Origin: Carcharhinus longimanus
Lineage: Eukaryota
Assembly: GCA_030264375.1 (NCBI GenBank)
Contig: JASCQW010000043.1
Location: forward strand, 108,441,877-108,505,876
Length of the DNA: 64,000 nucleotides
Direction of reading: 5' to 3'
Within the stretch, counting starts at the first letter, position 1, and every line of letters begins with the position of its first letter. Position numbers: made by a program. Shown here one piece after another: positions 18,001-60,000 of the stretch.

Positions 18001-21000
18001 TCCATGTAAATACAAAGGAAGAGTGGTGTTGCACTACGGTTTGTTTACATCTGAAGAAATTCACACATGACTGAACTGGTGTACTGAAGTGTCCCATATT
18101 TGACATTTTCTATACTCATGGCAATTGTTTTTCACTGTGTATTCATCCGTACAAACTGTTCTTTACCGTAACACTGTGTTTAATCCACAATATAACTTAC
18201 TGCAGATAAGGGAATGTTGCTCAAGACAGTTATCTCTGCAAACTGTGTAATTGTTGTCGCTGAACACTACCTTTACGGGAACCATCTCGTTGAGAAAAAT
18301 GATTTCTATTTTTAAATTTTTACATTGTTAACAAAATACTTAAATTTACCTGAAAATTTTATATTATATTTCATAAATGAGGAAAAAATTGACTTTTGAT
18401 GTTGGTTATAAAAATGGTTAAGAGGACAAGTATCATTTCTACTTGTCAGCCTTGACAAAAGTCATCTGGACTTGAAACATCAGCTCTCTTCTCACCTTAT
18501 AGATGCTGCCAGACCTGCTGAGATCTACAAAAAGATTACTTTGAAAAGTCGTACAACAGAGAGGAGGTTACTTGACAGATTATGCCTGTGCCAACTTTTT
18601 GAATGGACTGATTTGTTCGCCTCAATTCTCAATCCCTATTGTAATTTTTCATTGTCAAGCATATATTCAAATACCTTCTAAAAGTGACTTCAAATCTTCC
18701 ATCACTCTTTTTTCGGTCATGCATTCCATATCATAGCAACTAGCTGTGTGAAACAAAATGTTTCCTATTTTCCCTTTAGATTTTTTTGCCTGAATCTGTG
18801 TTCTCTGATAATGAATTCTGCCAGTGGACAGTTTCTCACCACCTTCATCAAACACTTCATTTTTTTTTCAAATCACAACTTTATGATTTGTTGGAGACAG
18901 TGAAAATAATTCCCATTGTGAAGTTTTCTCAGGCAAATGCAGTGGAGAAATGAAATTGGGTAAAAGCAAATTACTGCGGTTCCTGGGATCTGAAATCAAA
19001 AGAGAAAATGCTGAAAAATCTCAGCAGGTCTGGCAGCATCTATAAGGTAAGAAGAGAGCTGACATTTCAAGTCCAGATGACCTTTGTCAAGGCTGACAAG
19101 TAGAAATGATACTTGTCCTCTTAACCATTTTTATAACCAACATCAAAATATCAGTGAAGAAGTCATCTGATAAGCTTCTTTTTAAGTTTATTGCTTTGGG
19201 TGTGGGCTTCACTGGCAAAGTCAGCATCTGCTGCCCGTTGCTGATTATCCTTGAACTGAGTGACTTGCACAGCCATTTCAGAGGCCAGACCAGGTAAGAA
19301 CAGCACATTTCCTTCCCTAAAGGACAATAGTGAATCAGATGGTTTTGTGACAATTGATGGTAGATTTATGGTCATCATCACTGAGAGTCGCTTTATATTT
19401 CATATTTATTTAATTAAATTTACATTTTGCCAATTGCAGTGCTGGGATTTGAACCCATGTCTCCAGAGCATTGGCCTGACATTACCACCATACCACAATC
19501 TCCCCCTAGCATTTTAAAATTATAGCATTGATGCTATAATTTTAAAAGGTGCAATGCAATAAAATATCATATCACAACATAACATTTGATCTATATTGAA
19601 AATTGGTGAAAAATTGAGACAATAAATTGTTTGGCAATAGCTTGCACCACAGAACAAATATCTAAATCTGTATAAATGTATTCAGCAGTTGGTACAATTG
19701 TGTTAAAACAGTGGTTGTTTTTCAGCAAATCTTTATTGGAATTTGTGTTGAGTGCAGTCCTGAAATAAATAACCTGCATGGGAATTAAACCCTGACTTTT
19801 TAAAGGCAGTACAAAATGCATGGGGGCGGTATGGCAGCACAGTGATTAGCACTGCTGCCTCACAGCTCCAGGGACCCGGGTTCAATTATGGCCTCGGGTG
19901 ACTGTGCTGAGTTTACAGGTTCTCCCCGTGTCTGCATGCTTTGCCTCTGGGTGCTCCAGTTTCCTCCCACACTCCAAAGATGTGCGGGTTAGGTTGATTG
20001 ACCATGCTAAATTGCCTCTTAATGTGAGAGGATGAGGAGGTTATAGGACAGGACCTGGGTGGGATTGTTGTCAGTACATGCTCAATGGACCAAATAGCCT
20101 GCTTCTGCACTGTTTGCATCCACCCTAAAATTTTATTTGGAAACTTCTAAGCCAACTTGTATAGACCAACAATTCATTAAGGAAACAATAGTTCCATCAA
20201 ACTCAAAAAAAATCAGTCATCCTTAACTTTGTCACACATCAGATTTGGGTCAATTATGTAAATTCAAAACCCACGTACCTCTGTATTTCAACAACAACAG
20301 CAGGTTACGTTTATGCAGCATCTTTCACATCAAAAAAAGTCCCTCATCGCTTCACAGGAACAGGAAATGTCAACATTTGGTTTATTGACCAAACCACACA
20401 TGATCAAAAGAGTGACCAAAGAAGTTGGGTTTAGAGAAACAAGAGGCAGGGAGGTTGTGGGAGGGCATTCTAAAGTTTTGGGTCTTGCTAACGAAGGCAT
20501 GGTCACGAATGGTGGAGCAAATAAAATCCGGAATGCTCAAGAAGCCAAATTACAAAGTGTGGACAACTCGAAGGTTGTGGGGCTGGAGGAAACTTACAGA
20601 TCTAAGAAGGGGTGAGACGATGATGGAGCCTTGAAAGAAAGGATATGGCATGGTAGCACAATGGTTTAGCACTGCTGTCTCGCAGTTTCAGGGACCGGAG
20701 TTCGATTCCAGCTTGGGTGACTATCTATGCAGAATTTGCATGTTCTTCCTATGTCTGTGTAGGTTTCCCCCGGGTACTCTAGTTTCCTCCACACTCCAAA
20801 AATCATCATCGTAGAATCCCTACAGTACAGAAGGAGGCCATTCGGCCCACCGAGTCTGTACTGACCACAATCCCACCAGGCCTTAATGCCGTAACCTTCA
20901 TTACCCTCCTAATCCCACTGACACTAAGGTCAATTTAACATGATCAATCAATGCAACTTTTGGACTATAGGAGGAAACGGGAGCACCTGGAGAAAATCCA

Positions 21001-57000: not shown

Positions 57001-60000
57001 ATCTTTCCTTAAATATCCTTTCCTCCCTTTCATCTCCAATCCCCATTGTCCTCAGCAGCTCTTTGACCATCACAACTTTTCCAAAATATAAAAATCTTAT
57101 TGCTTCCACTTCCAGGTCAAATAAAATTTAGTAATCTTCGATTGTTTACTAATGAGACTTTGTAAGTTTTAAAACTCCCTTAAACACCTCTTCCAAATTC
57201 AACAGCAAAAGAGCCAAATCCCTATCAACTTCCCAATGGGAATTTTAAAGTCCAACCTATTTAATTCACTCATGGATGTGGGGCCAGAATTTATTGCCCA
57301 TCCTTAATTGCCCTTGAACTGAGTGGCTTGCTAGGTCATTTTCAGAGGGCATTTAAGAGTCACATGCAAGTCAGACCAGGTAGGGATCGCAGATTTCTTT
57401 ACCAAAACGATGTTAATGAGTGTTAATGGCTTTTACAACAATCGATAATCAATCGTTTCATGGTCATCATTAGACTTTTAATGCCAGATTTTTATTGAAT
57501 TTAAATTTCACTATCTGTCATGATGCAATTCACCTTAAAAGAGGCTACCTTAAGAGAGACTATGATGCAATTCGAACCCCAGTCCCTGGGTCTCTGGATT
57601 ACTAGCCCAGTGACAAAACCACTATGCTATCACCTCCTGCAGTTGGCAGTTGTGCTCAATGTTCTGGACTTTAACTGACAATCTTCAAATCAGAAATATG
57701 AAGATAAATATTATTTTAAAAAATACTTTTGGGAATGAGCCGGCATTCTGTAAAGAAGGCTGTGTGTATGTGTACATGATTTAATTAAGATGGGGAAAAT
57801 TAATAGAGACAGCTTGTCTGGGAGAGCTGAGAGATAAAAGGGTAAAGATGCCAGATGTATGCACTTGTAATGAGAAGCTCTGGTGAAGTTCGATTTACAA
57901 TTGTCACTGAGCTAATAATCCAGAGACTGCGGGATTGGGGTTCGAATCGCATCATGACAGATGGTGAAATTTAAATTTTAAATATAATTCTGGAATTAAC
58001 TGTCTAACAATGACCATGAAATCACGGCTGATTTTTGTAAAAGCCGATCCAATTCATTAATGTCCTTTTGCAAAGGAAATCTGCCAAACTTACCTGATCT
58101 GACTTACATGGGATTCTAGATCCATTCTTAAATGCCCTCTGAAATGACCTAGCCCTACATATCAGTACTGATTAGCAGAGATAAAGAGTGAACACATAGA
58201 AAATGTTCAGGTGGATGGACACAAATGATATGGGTGCTTGGTGCAGAATGCTGGTGGGGATGGCAGATTGGGCCATCGGCCACAGCGAGTTGGAATTGGG
58301 AGAGGGGCATTTGGGGAGGGTGCTGGGGTTAACTCAGCTCAAGGACAGGCAAAACCTGCTGTCCCCACTTGTTCTTGCCCACATCCCATGAATGAATTAG
58401 AAAACATCTAAGCTGACAGCTTGGTGCAGCATTGAGGATTATTACAACCCCACACAGGTCATGCTGAAGGGACATTTGGAGTTTTGGGCTTAATGTTACA
58501 CCGGAGGTGGTTGCACAGGGTGGCTGGACAAGAGGCACCCTCTTGTGCTGCCTTGGTTCATCTGATGGTCTGGATATTTGTCAGTTGCCTCCCCCATCAT
58601 GGGAAATAGCCCATCTGCTGTTTGAGGAGATCCTATAGTGACCACCAATTGGGCACTCAGGAGCCTCACTTGACCCACAGGCAAGCAGGTGATCCATGCA
58701 GGGGATGGACATGGCACCACTGTCATGGAATCCAATCTTGTACCCCCTACCTCTGAACATGCCCCAGTAAATCTCCAGCCTTTACGTGCAGTTTTAAGTG
58801 CCATGCTTTAGACAATGCATTGACAAGTTGGAGTAAATTAAGAGAAAGGCAGTAGGGAACACTCAATAATTGAAGACTACATTATTGGTGGAGTTTTGTT
58901 GTTAAAACCAAGATTCTATGATATTGTTTCAAAGAAGGCTCAGGAAAAGGGCAGCTAAAACTCAGGCCAAAATTTTACCGCCAGTTGCAGAACAGAAATC
59001 TCAGTTGACTTTGGGCAGGATTTTATGATCTTGCCCGAATGAGGTTGTAAAATTCTGCGCTAAGTGTCTTGAGCCAATATTGATCCCTTCAACAATGTGG
59101 AAACAATTTTCCTAGTGACTATCACCATGCTGTTTTAGGGAGCTTTGCCTGTAGTACCAGATTCCAGAAGTACTTAATTGGTTATAAAGCACTTGGAGAT
59201 GTCCTGAGTTCATGAAATGTGCTATATAAATGCAGCTTTTCTTAAATACAAAGTTATATATTTTGGAAGCAGAAACAGCAAAGATGCACGAATCACCTTC
59301 CCATGTCTATTGATCACTCACTGAACATTTCCATAATCCCAATCAAACACAAAAGTACGCGAGAGGCATTAAGGTTATTCCAACCTTGTATAGATCTCTG
59401 CTGTAGAGACATTTGGAATTTTATGAGTAGCTATATGACCCCTGTGCATGATTAGAAAATACTTGTACAATGTAGAGAAGAGCAGTAGGGAACATTTGAA
59501 AAACTTCAGCCTGCGTTTTGTGAAGGGCTTTCGTTGTTGCGTCCAAGAAAATTAATTGTAAACATGATCAAGTCGCTGAAAGTCTTATCTGATAATGGTG
59601 TAAAGCAGCGACTTGATTGAAAGGCAGAAACAGGATTAAAAATTATAAACCTAAATAAGAGTGAAGGATATAAACTTCTTCTCTGCAAAATAGAAGAAGC
59701 TTGATGTGGGCTGGCGTTGGACTGGGGTCAGCACAGTAAGAAGTCTCAGGTTAAAATCCAACAGGTTTATTTGGTAGCATCAGCTTTCAATGTGTTGTTC
59801 CTTCATCAGATGAGTGGAGAGTTGACTTCACAAACAGGGCATATGTAGACAAAGCAAACTTGACTTAATTCTCTCTCTCAGAAAGGTGACTAACTGAGAA
59901 CAGAGGTAGACATCATGCGTGCTTTGTCCAAAGGCAGGGCCTTGGTTTATTGCCTGCCGATGCTTCATCCTGAACAATTATCTTAACAATTTTTTTGTCA

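What the first reader, a model, noticed from the sequence alone, without database searches (positions are those of the whole stretch)
18394..58332. Recurrent short copies of nearby DNA (66-190 bp, donor 0.5-2 kb away, mostly inverted)
Seen: five independent pairs in about 40 kb. These are 18394-18524/19018-19148 (inverted), 22534-22599/23207-23272 (direct), 31978-32150/32953-33143 (inverted), 45945-46121/46795-46966 (inverted) and 56130-56319/58151-58332 (inverted). In two cases the copy splits a SINE that resumes on the other side, which gives the direction of the event. The copies carry substitutions and indels, so they are old and not simple assembly duplicates. Established: templated insertions copied from break-proximal DNA are a signature of polymerase-theta end joining and of template-switch repair (SDSA/MMBIR). 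Inference: this density may reflect a prominent germline repair mode, or simply slow erasure, in this shark lineage. It is the best candidate for an undescribed process in the window.
[Added by the scan's program, not by the reader: the finding's places include an assembly gap (unread letters, written N; its length is only estimated) at 28286 to 28385, 28654 to 28663, 41876 to 41885, 44151 to 44250, 53715 to 53814. Whether the letters on both sides are continuous or in frame is not known: test that first.]
Basis: partly seen in the sequence, partly recalled or inferred. Interest (0 to 1): 0.7.

Follow-up and report, generated by a model that had tools for sequence, protein, structure and literature searches.

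The report
Short copies of nearby DNA (repair scars)
The five pairs are real, and at least two are old break-repair scars where about 180 bases of neighbouring DNA were copied into a broken repeat element, a process already described in other vertebrates but unusually dense in this window.

Summary
Observation confirmed. All five pairs exist at or near the stated coordinates: 66-190 nt, 85-97% identical over aligned bases, spacers 493-1831 nt, four inverted and one direct. None touches or spans an N run. Edges are sharp, transitions dominate the differences (46:14), and high-identity matches are concentrated within 3 kb.

P3 and P5 are one-arm insertions into SINE-like repeats. The host repeat resumes in the same orientation, with no target-site duplication or poly-A, 3-5 nt lost and 3-5 nt microhomology. 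This matches the "repair-mediated duplications" (RDs) of Pace et al. 2009, described for ten vertebrates but no shark. P1 is a probable RD, P2 is undetermined, and P4 looks like a single 1-kb insertion with 177-nt terminal inverted repeats inside a LINE.

The polymerase-theta reading does not fit: its templated insertions are 3-30 bp copied from flanking DNA. The process is therefore not undescribed.

Density is the open point. Two in-repeat events in 64 kb is at least 50 times the published human density. This rests on one window, and genome-wide copy number could not be tested.

The parts
31973..32150 (+). P3 acceptor: a 178-nt inverted copy of 32955-33143, inserted into a SINE-like repeat.
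   Evidence: Alignment of 31730-32260 to the uninterrupted repeat copy 21680-21340 (minus) shows one block absent from that copy. The arms align. No third copy in the window.
31760..32221 (+). Host SINE-like repeat of P3. The two halves, 31760-31972 and 32151-32221, are collinear and in the same orientation.
   Evidence: 31760-31954 matches 21651-21459 at 75.9%, and 32152-32221 matches 21435-21366 at 85.7%. Alignment.
32955..33143 (-). P3 donor: G-rich on the + strand (44% G), 804 nt downstream of the acceptor.
   Evidence: Its flanks are not homologous to the acceptor's flanks and match no other repeat in the window.
58151..58332 (-). P5 acceptor: a 182-nt inverted copy of 56144-56319, inserted into repeat X.
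   Evidence: The multiple alignment of 4 X copies and the pairwise X'/X alignment both show one insert, between the motifs CTGAGT and AGGTCA.
57869..58400 (-). Host repeat X (about 400 nt interspersed repeat) of P5. The halves 58400-58333 and 58150-57869 are collinear.
   Evidence: Other X copies: 19187-19534, 57266-57677, 62799-63202.
56144..56319 (+). P5 donor: C-rich (33% C), 1831 nt upstream of the acceptor.
   Evidence: No repeat found in its flanks.
18394..18524 (+). P1 derived copy (probable acceptor): an inverted copy of 19018-19148. It holds 77 nt of hairpin repeat F plus 54 nt of the DNA next to it.
   Evidence: F homology breaks off at 18524/18525, whereas the right copy runs on into F.
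18958..19148 (+). P1 donor side: the F-repeat arm 18958-19094 plus the adjacent 19095-19148. The copied part is 19018-19148.
   Evidence: 18958-19094 matches 2013-1876. Homology to the other F copy ends near 19094.
22534..22599 (+). P2 left copy (direct pair, polarity unknown).
   Evidence: No repeat in its flanks.
23207..23272 (+). P2 right copy.
45945..46966 (.). P4 block: 177/172-nt terminal inverted arms (45945-46121 and 46795-46966) around a 673-nt spacer. The whole block lies in a break of a LINE copy.
   Evidence: nhmmer aligns LINE copy A 12597-12847 to 45481-45744 and A 12867-13356 to 46960-47394. A weaker extension aligns A 12845-12899 to 45862-45918. No copy of the arms or spacer elsewhere in the window. 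No TSD except a possible palindromic TA.

Best explanation
The pairs are mostly scars of germline double-strand-break repair. A broken end invaded nearby DNA on the same chromosome, 0.5-1.8 kb away and in either orientation. It copied 66-190 nt and was then re-joined to the other end through a few bases of microhomology, with a few target bases lost. This is the repair-mediated duplication (RD) of Pace et al. 2009, attributed to synthesis-dependent strand annealing.

Shown:
- P3 and P5 are insertions of one arm into a repeat that resumes unchanged in orientation.
- There is no target-site duplication and no poly-A.
- The target lost 3-5 nt.
- One junction has 3-5 nt of microhomology.
- The donor is close by and has no other copy in the window.

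Inferred:
- That a break and strand invasion were the cause.
- That P1 (probable) and P2 (unknown polarity) arose the same way.
- That the events are germline and fixed.

P4 is probably something else: one 1-kb insertion with terminal inverted repeats. The events differ in age (K2P 0.03-0.17), so the process recurred.
For: 1. P3. The SINE-like repeat 31760-32221 carries a 178-nt block that is absent from the copy at 21651-21366. The repeat continues directly after the block in the same orientation. The block is the reverse complement of 32955-33143.

2. P5. Repeat X on the minus strand runs 58400-58333, is then interrupted by 58332-58151, and resumes at 58150. This shows in the alignment with 3 other X copies and in the pairwise alignment. 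The insert is the reverse complement of 56144-56319.

3. Junctions.
- P5: the insert and donor both end in GGGCT, while X reads GGCTTGCT at the site. That gives 3-4 nt of microhomology and 4-5 nt of X lost.
- P3: the donor continues with GTGAC and the intact repeat copy also reads GTGAC at the resumption point. Three to 5 nt of the repeat are lost.
- Neither junction has a poly-A or a TSD.
- These values fall within the published ranges: microhomology 2-9 nt and deletion 1-15 nt (PMC2671141, Table 1 legend).

4. Size and distance match published RDs: mean 162 bp, median 147, maximum 619; 66% of donors within 3 kb, with a peak near 1.2 kb.

5. Each duplicated sequence is different, and P2-P5 have no further copy in the window. 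Edges are sharp.

6. Differences between copies are 46 transitions to 14 transversions, with K2P 0.032-0.169. That indicates real evolutionary divergence of different ages. Both acceptors are less diverged from their donors than the host repeats are from their relatives, which are about 75% identical.

7. No protein domain lies in or between the arms: 0 of 81 short ORFs. Among 122 longer ORFs in the whole window, the only domain above threshold is a reverse transcriptase at 3-719.

8. P1. The copied unit crosses the edge of repeat F (77 nt of F plus 54 nt beyond it). Only the right copy continues into the rest of F, so the left copy is the derived one.
Against: - Genome-wide copy number of the duplicated segments could not be tested, because no eukaryotic genome collection was on hand. 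"Only one other copy" holds for 64 kb only.
- There is no orthologous empty site. The pre-insertion state rests on 1 comparison copy for P3 and 3 for P5, at 70-76% identity. At that divergence the microhomology and deletion sizes are approximate.
- P4 does not fit a one-arm insertion. LINE homology stops before the left arm and restarts at the end of the right arm, so the whole 1022-nt block is the interruption. That exceeds the published RD maximum of 619 bp.
- P1 could be a doubly truncated second copy of the hairpin repeat F in the opposite orientation. Only one other F copy was available to show that the 54-nt extension is locus-specific.
- P2 has no host repeat and no polarity.
- SDSA cannot be told apart from replication-fork template switching (FoSTeS/MMBIR) by sequence alone.
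Confidence: 0.7

Rival explanations
1. The pairs are transposable-element structures. Either they are the terminal inverted repeats of non-autonomous DNA transposons (arm-spacer-arm as one element), or they are two independent copies of small multicopy repeats that happen to lie close together.
For: - P4: the whole 1022-nt block with 177-nt terminal inverted arms sits in a break of a LINE copy. A palindromic TA at both ends could be a Tc1/mariner-type TSD.
- P1: 77 nt of each arm belong to a multicopy hairpin repeat F, also found at 1762-2013.
- Genome-wide copy number is untested.
Against: - P3 and P5: the host repeat resumes immediately after one arm, not after the second arm. The two arms therefore cannot be the ends of one element.
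- No TSD of at least 3 nt lies around any of the 4 inverted blocks.
- No transposase or other domain: 0 of 81 short ORFs. Among 122 long ORFs, only a reverse transcriptase at 3-719.
- In P1 the F parts are inside-out: the outer ends of the F arms face each other.
- Five unrelated sequences would each need exactly two copies within 2 kb and none elsewhere in 64 kb (p about 7e-7).
- The near pairs are more similar than 16 other non-SINE matches that I picked (Mann-Whitney p=5e-5; the selection was by hand).
Confidence: 0.15
2. [quoted passage not shown] This is the reader's first mechanism.
For: - Microhomology of 3-5 nt at one junction and small deletions in P3 and P5.
- Both direct and inverted templated insertions are known for TMEJ (PMC7165422 passages).
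Against: - Published TMEJ templated insertions are 3-30 bp, identical to flanking DNA, with first synthesis tracts rarely above 10 bp. Total insert lengths of 1-157 bp were seen in that study, the longer ones built from several rounds.
- Here single uninterrupted tracts of 66-190 nt were copied from 493-1831 nt away.
Confidence: 0.07
3. Replication-fork template switching (FoSTeS/MMBIR type) caused the copies rather than break-induced SDSA. A stalled nascent strand switched to the opposite template within the same fork, copied 66-190 nt and switched back.
For: - Four of 5 copies are inverted, which a switch to the opposite strand of one fork produces naturally.
- Microhomology at junctions.
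- Structure-prone DNA lies nearby. A hairpin at 32740-32850 (dG -32 kcal/mol, z -3.9) sits 100 nt from the P3 donor. The P5 acceptor lies inside an inverted X/X' pair. P1 lies beside hairpin repeat F. The P3 and P5 donors are G- or C-rich.
Against: - Four of 5 is not different from 1:1 (p=0.375).
- The described short-range template switches involve a few tens of bases and were searched within 100-200 bp (PMC5453318 passages).
- Sequence alone cannot separate this from SDSA.
Confidence: 0.2
4. Assembly artefact: mis-joined reads, haplotype copies or chimeric long reads.
For: The window is a gapped scaffold with 7 N runs. The extra pair P6 touches a gap.
Against: - No gap lies in or between the arms of P1-P5.
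- The copies differ by 3-15% with a 46:14 transition excess and indels.
- The copies are short, with unrelated flanks.
Confidence: 0.02
5. RNA-mediated copying: retroposition of a local transcript.
For: None found here. In Pace et al. this explained most of the distant or inter-chromosomal cases (17 of 29 examined).
Against: - No poly-A/T and no TSD at the P3 or P5 acceptor.
- All donors lie within 2 kb. None of the 39 proximal cases examined by Pace et al. had a poly-A/T tract.
Confidence: 0.02

Closest known systems
[quoted passage not shown]
   Same: - An insert of at least 50 bp interrupts a transposable element.
- The donor is on the same chromosome within 5 kb (here 0.5-1.8 kb; published peak near 1.2 kb).
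- Length here is 66-190 nt (published mean 162, median 147).
- Microhomology, small deletions, no poly-A.
- Events are of different ages.
P3 and P5 could have been found by that paper's own pipeline logic.
   Different: - The lineage is new. The paper surveyed 10 vertebrates, none a cartilaginous fish.
- Apparent density is at least 31 per Mb against 0.08-0.65 per Mb of TE DNA.
- Uniqueness of the donor in the genome was not tested here.
- The main text I read says nothing on orientation ratios; these may be in Table S1, which was not available to me.
[quoted passage not shown] 2004, PNAS)
   Same: Short local duplications a short distance apart, proposed to come from imperfect break repair. 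This is as summarised by Pace et al., section 14.
   Different: Doublets are nearly identical duplicons of under 100 bp. The paper itself is not held, so further details would be recalled only.
Polymerase-theta templated insertions (TINS; Carvajal-Garcia et al. 2020, PMC7165422)
   Same: Templated, direct or inverted, with microhomology at junctions.
   Different: TINS are 3-30 bp copied from DNA flanking the break. Here the copies are 66-190 nt from 0.5-1.8 kb away.
Short-range template switching, four-point model (Loytynoja and Goldman 2017, PMC5453318)
   Same: Creates inverted copies of nearby sequence in a single event.
   Different: [quoted passage not shown] Here the tracts are longer and the templates are kilobase-scale away.
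Non-autonomous DNA transposons with long terminal inverted repeats
   Same: P4 (1022 nt with 177-nt inverted ends, lying inside a LINE break) has this shape.
   Different: No clear TSD, no second copy in the window, no transposase remnant. P3 and P5 are excluded because the host repeat resumes after one arm.

Membership tests
Repair-mediated duplication (Pace et al. 2009) | An insert of at least 50 bp interrupts a TE whose two fragments abut in family coordinates (within about 30 bp) and share orientation. | tested here: met
   Met for 2 of 5 pairs: P3 and P5. P1 and P2 have no recognisable host repeat. In P4 the whole block, not one arm, is the interruption.
Repair-mediated duplication (Pace et al. 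2009) | The inserted sequence is not itself a TE and occurs at only one other place in the genome. | not testable with these tools
   Within the 64-kb window, P2-P5 arms have no third copy. Part of the P1 arm (77 nt) is a multicopy repeat. No genome of this organism was available to search.
Repair-mediated duplication (Pace et al. 2009) | The donor is on the same chromosome, within 5 kb and more than 50 bp from the acceptor. | tested here: met
   5 of 5: spacers 493, 607, 804, 673 and 1831 nt, with no N run between the arms.
Repair-mediated duplication (Pace et al. 2009) | No poly-A/T tract. Breakpoints show microhomology (2-9 nt), deletion (1-15 nt) and/or filler. | tested here: met
   P3: GTGAC/GAC shared by donor end and repeat, 3-5 nt lost. 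P5: GCT/GGCT shared, 4-5 nt lost. Sizes are approximate because the comparison copies are 70-76% identical. Not assessable for P1, P2 or P4.
Repair-mediated duplication (Pace et al. 2009) | An empty orthologous site in a related species. | not testable with these tools
   No related genomes were available.
Polymerase-theta templated insertion (TINS) | An insert of about 3-30 bp identical to DNA flanking the break. | tested here: not met
   Inserts are 66-190 nt from 493-1831 nt away, against the published description.
TIR DNA transposon / MITE | The two inverted arms are the ends of one inserted element flanked by a target-site duplication. | tested here: not met
   P3 and P5: the host repeat resumes after one arm. 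No TSD of at least 3 nt around any of the 4 inverted blocks. P4 alone is inconclusive: it is a block inside a LINE break, and a palindromic TA is possible.
TIR DNA transposon / MITE | Multiple dispersed copies in the genome. | not testable with these tools
   No other copy in 64 kb. The genome was not available.
Inversion by staggered breaks (inverted duplications flanking an inverted segment) | The DNA between the inverted copies is inverted relative to its surroundings. | tested here: not met
   The two halves of the host repeat on either side of the P3 and P5 acceptors keep the same orientation and order.

The most novel reading that the evidence does not exclude
This lineage carries proximal repair-mediated duplications at a density one to two orders of magnitude above every vertebrate surveyed so far: at least 31 per Mb here against 0.08-0.65 per Mb of TE DNA. 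That is more than slower sequence decay alone would explain. The copies may also tend to be inverted, which would point to a strand-switching repair or replication-restart mode that is unusually prominent in its germline.
Probability: 0.2. Interest if true: 0.6.

Novelty: new member of a known kind. Interest (0 to 1): 0.35.

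Why it matters
These scars are a fossil record of how germline breaks were repaired. The known survey covers ten vertebrates and found up to eight-fold differences between lineages, with no settled cause (PMC2671141 sections 12 and 17).

Suppose a slowly evolving, repeat-rich cartilaginous-fish genome really holds tens of such events per megabase. It would then offer a much deeper and denser record than mammals do, with thousands of donor/acceptor pairs carrying polarity. Such a set could be used to measure orientation, distance, microhomology and rate through time. It could also separate a higher repair-error rate from slower erasure.

The duplications also create inverted repeats 0.5-2 kb apart, which are themselves potential sources of instability.

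If the window is simply an outlier, the finding is an ordinary example of a described process.

Tried and rejected
- Rfam at gathering thresholds: 0 hits. ARAGORN: 0 tRNAs. Rfam at E<=1: only two far-sub-threshold miRNA-family hits, mir-5880 at 28.9 bits against 97 and mir-101 at 24.4 against 60. The "tRNA-derived SINE" label for the host repeats is therefore visual or recalled, not tested. I call them SINE-like.
- Pfam on 122 stop-to-stop ORFs of at least 75 aa: RVT_1 at 3-719(-), plus three matches below their cut-offs (DUF2934, HSDR_N_2, CCHC_ZFPM2). The ORF with the weak CCHC_ZFPM2 match (40385-40798, minus) does not look like an exon on translation.
- Pfam on 81 ORFs of 35-74 aa inside the five pair blocks: 0 hits.
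- The idea that the P3 donor is a degenerate SINE copy, so that both copies would be one longer SINE subfamily. A by-eye resemblance of the flanks did not exceed chance (p=0.40 and 0.79), and SINE tiles do not hit the donor region.
- Inversion with staggered breaks: rejected for P3 and P5 because the host halves stay collinear.
- Global DNA alignments of the two LINE copies around P4 were too noisy to place the break. nhmmer and a local alignment with a random-segment control (9 of 2000 as good) were used instead. The roughly 33-nt LINE overlap on both sides of the P4 block is only about 68% alike by my count. That is much less than the arms (94%), so it is not a TSD of the same event. Whether the two LINE parts are one copy stays uncertain.
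- The search for additional shorter local pairs (exact matches of at least 16 nt within 3 kb) found none beyond those listed.
- Thomas et al. 2004 is not held.
- Literature. The search "repair-mediated duplication" gave 9 papers, none on cartilaginous fish (listing only). The search "shark + genome + templated insertion" gave 4 incidental papers (listing only). I found nothing in the held library describing this in sharks.
- Not used: complex prediction, structure tools, the large protein searches and genome contigs. That collection holds bacteria and archaea only and is of no use here.

Full report
**Setting**

The window is 64,000 nt with 40.7% G+C and seven N runs. It is mostly non-coding and rich in repeats.
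- At least 17.4 kb has another copy inside the window.
- There are about a dozen copies of a 200-300 nt SINE-like repeat, four copies of a second repeat of about 400 nt that I call X, and CR1-like LINE fragments.
- The only protein domain above threshold in 122 long ORFs is a reverse transcriptase at 3-719 on the minus strand.
- I do not take the contig for human. Its repeat families look like those I recall from elasmobranch genomes, but that is recall only.
- Rfam and ARAGORN gave no tRNA hit. The organism was not tested.

Yes. Self-blastn, local alignment and the repeat finder all recover the five pairs. Coordinates, identities and spacers are listed under the observation check.

Gaps were checked first, as the scan program asked. 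No N run lies within or between the arms of any of the five pairs. Distances and continuity therefore stand as assembled, and nothing was filled.

The pairs are more than chance and more than ordinary interspersed repeats:
- Exact matches of at least 16 nt pile up in the first 3-kb distance bin: 9 direct and 19 inverted, against 0-5 in any later bin.
- With nhmmer at full sensitivity, the arms of P2-P5 have no third copy in the window.
- Homology stops sharply at both ends of every pair, with flank scores at chance level (p 0.40-0.97).
- Six near non-family pairs are 82-97% identical, whereas 16 other non-SINE matches I took are 67-86% identical (Mann-Whitney p=5e-5; the selection was by hand).
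- Differences between copies are 46 transitions to 14 transversions, with K2P from 0.032 to 0.169. This is evolutionary divergence of different ages, not assembly duplication.

**Anatomy of P3**

The SINE-like repeat at 31760-32221 can be compared with the uninterrupted copy at 21651-21366. It contains one extra block, 31973-32150, and the repeat then continues at 32151-32221 in the same orientation.
- The block is the reverse complement of 32955-33143, 804 nt downstream, apart from substitutions and a 19-nt indel.
- At the right junction the donor continues with GTGAC. The intact repeat copy reads GTGAC at the resumption point.
- Three to five repeat bases are missing.
- There is no poly-A and no target-site duplication.

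**Anatomy of P5**

Repeat X on the minus strand runs 58400-58333. It is interrupted by 58332-58151 and resumes at 58150. This is seen against three other X copies and in a pairwise alignment.
- The insert is the reverse complement of 56144-56319, 1831 nt upstream.
- Donor and insert both end in GGGCT, where X reads GGCTTGCT. That gives 3-4 nt of microhomology and 4-5 nt lost.

In P3 the left copy is the acceptor and in P5 the right copy is. In both, the two host halves stay collinear. That excludes two readings: that the two arms are the ends of one transposon, and that there was an inversion with staggered breaks.

**Anatomy of P1**

Seventy-seven nt of each arm belong to a hairpin-shaped multicopy repeat F, which has a full palindromic copy at 1762-2013.
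- The right copy (19018-19148) is continuous with the rest of an F arm (18958-19094). It then extends 54 nt beyond the arm.
- The left copy breaks F at 18524/18525.
- The copied unit thus crosses a repeat boundary, and the left copy is the derived one.
- The F parts are arranged inside-out relative to a normal F element, so the pair is not an F element.
- One caveat remains. A doubly truncated second F copy of the same subfamily, in the opposite orientation, would look the same if the 54 nt belong to that subfamily's loop. Only one other F copy was available as a check.

**Anatomy of P2**

Two direct 66-nt copies lie 607 nt apart. There is no recognisable repeat around either copy, so polarity is unknown.

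**Anatomy of P4**

nhmmer aligns LINE copy A (12597-12847) to 45481-45744, and A (12867-13356) to 46960-47394. Nineteen nt in copy A correspond to 1215 nt here.
- A weaker local alignment extends the left LINE part to about 45918 (9 of 2000 random segments score as well).
- The whole block 45945-46966, with its 177/172-nt inverted ends and 673-nt spacer, is then essentially the interruption.
- That is the shape of a non-autonomous transposon with long terminal inverted repeats, or of a single complex fold-back insertion. It is not a one-arm capture.
- No TSD is evident beyond a possible palindromic TA, and there is no domain.
- I leave P4 undecided and do not count it as the same kind of event.

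**Mechanism**

P3 and P5 meet every feature I could test of the repair-mediated duplications (RDs) described by Pace, Sen, Batzer and Feschotte (PMC2671141). I read the abstract, the first part of the Results, sections 12, 14 and 17, and term searches. The paper reports:
- inserts of at least 50 bp inside TEs;
- the donor on the same chromosome within 5 kb, with 66% under 3 kb and a peak near 1.2 kb;
- mean length 162 bp, median 147, maximum 619;
- junctions with microhomology of 2-9 nt, deletions of 1-15 nt and filler;
- no poly-A in any of the 39 proximal cases examined.

The authors attribute these events to synthesis-dependent strand annealing (SDSA) at germline breaks. The most likely story here is therefore as follows. 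A break occurred in the repeat. One 3' end invaded nearby DNA in cis and copied roughly 180 nt. The extended end was then joined to the other end through a few bases of microhomology. The insertion, its polarity and the junction features are shown; the break and the invasion are inferred.

Replication-fork template switching would leave the same scar and cannot be excluded. Structure-prone DNA lies near several sites:
- a hairpin at 32740-32850;
- the inverted X/X' pair around the P5 acceptor;
- hairpin repeat F beside P1;
- G- or C-rich donors in P3 and P5.

Four of five inverted is compatible with that reading but is not significant (p=0.375).

Its templated insertions are 3-30 bp of flanking sequence built from short tracts (PMC7165422). 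Short-range template switches of the four-point model are likewise tens of bases within about 200 bp (PMC5453318).

**Novelty and density**

The process is described, so "undescribed" does not hold. What is new is the lineage. The published survey covered ten vertebrates, none of them a cartilaginous fish. My two searches of the held library found nothing on this in sharks (listings only).

The striking point is density.
- Published values are 0.08-0.65 RDs per Mb of TE DNA.
- Two in-repeat events in at most 64 kb is at least 31 per Mb, which is at least 50 times the human value.
- At the human density, two or more events in 64 kb would have probability 7.7e-4.

Several cautions apply:
- This is one window, and it reached me because the pairs were seen in it.
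- The published pipeline is conservative.
- Cartilaginous fishes have significantly slower substitution rates than other vertebrates (PMC8455134 passages).
- Pair distances of K2P 0.03-0.17 suggest a steady trickle rather than a burst, but five events cannot show that.

**Left unchecked**

- Genome-wide copy number of every arm, orthologous empty sites and long-read support.
- Orientation statistics in the supplements of Pace et al., which were not available to me.
- The identity of the organism.

**Verdict**

At least two and probably three of the five pairs are repair-mediated duplications of a known kind. One is probably a different thing, and one is undetermined. Interest is moderate. It rests on the untested possibility that such scars are far denser in this lineage than in any surveyed vertebrate.

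Noticed in passing
window 26176-26263 and 28399-28488: A sixth local pair: direct, 88-90% identical, about 2.1 kb apart. The right copy starts 13 nt after the N run 28286-28385, on a 268-nt island between two gaps, and the spacer spans a gap. Distance and placement cannot be trusted.
   Followed up: partly
window 1762-2013 and 18958-19094: Hairpin-shaped interspersed repeat F. The copy at 1762-2013 is palindromic, with arms 86-87% complementary and a 33-nt loop. A single arm lies at 18958-19094 and supplies part of P1.
   Followed up: partly
window 57520-57573: X copy 57266-57677 carries a 42-nt insertion absent from the other X copies. A 12-nt word occurs on both sides of a 30-nt filler that itself looks like two similar 15-mers. 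This is a small duplication-plus-filler scar, closer in scale to end-joining insertions.
   Followed up: no
window 57328-57616 and 57901-58155: Two X copies lie in inverted orientation 285 nt apart, about 75% identical. The P5 acceptor lies inside the second one, so a long imperfect palindrome surrounds that old break site.
   Followed up: no
window 32740-32850: A strong DNA hairpin (dG -32 kcal/mol, z -3.9, 0 of 200 shuffles as stable) sits about 100 nt from the P3 donor. The only Rfam hit is a far-sub-threshold one to mir-5880 (28.9 bits against gathering 97), so it is not a member.
   Followed up: partly
window 702-1014: An inverted repeat (93-nt arms, 87% complementary, 127 nt between them) lies directly next to the LINE reverse-transcriptase ORF at 3-719 on the minus strand (239 aa without a stop, RVT_1 E=7e-20).
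   Followed up: no
window 44251-44327: A perfect tandem repeat (33-nt unit, 2.3 copies, 100% matches) begins at the first base after the N run 44151-44250. The gap probably lies inside a tandem array.
   Followed up: no
window 31973-32150, 32955-33143, 56144-56319, 58151-58332: The duplicated segments of P3 and P5 are strongly C-rich or G-rich (33-44% of one base) with many runs of 4 or more C or G, so they may be quadruplex-prone. Similar C-rich tandem units occur at 16241-16325 and 62217-62273. The P3 and P5 sequences are not related to each other by nhmmer.
   Followed up: partly
window 19512-19547: A 36-nt near-perfect palindrome (94%) lies at the end of an X copy. It has a weak sub-threshold Rfam hit to mir-101 (24.4 bits against gathering 60), which is probably chance.
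   Followed up: no
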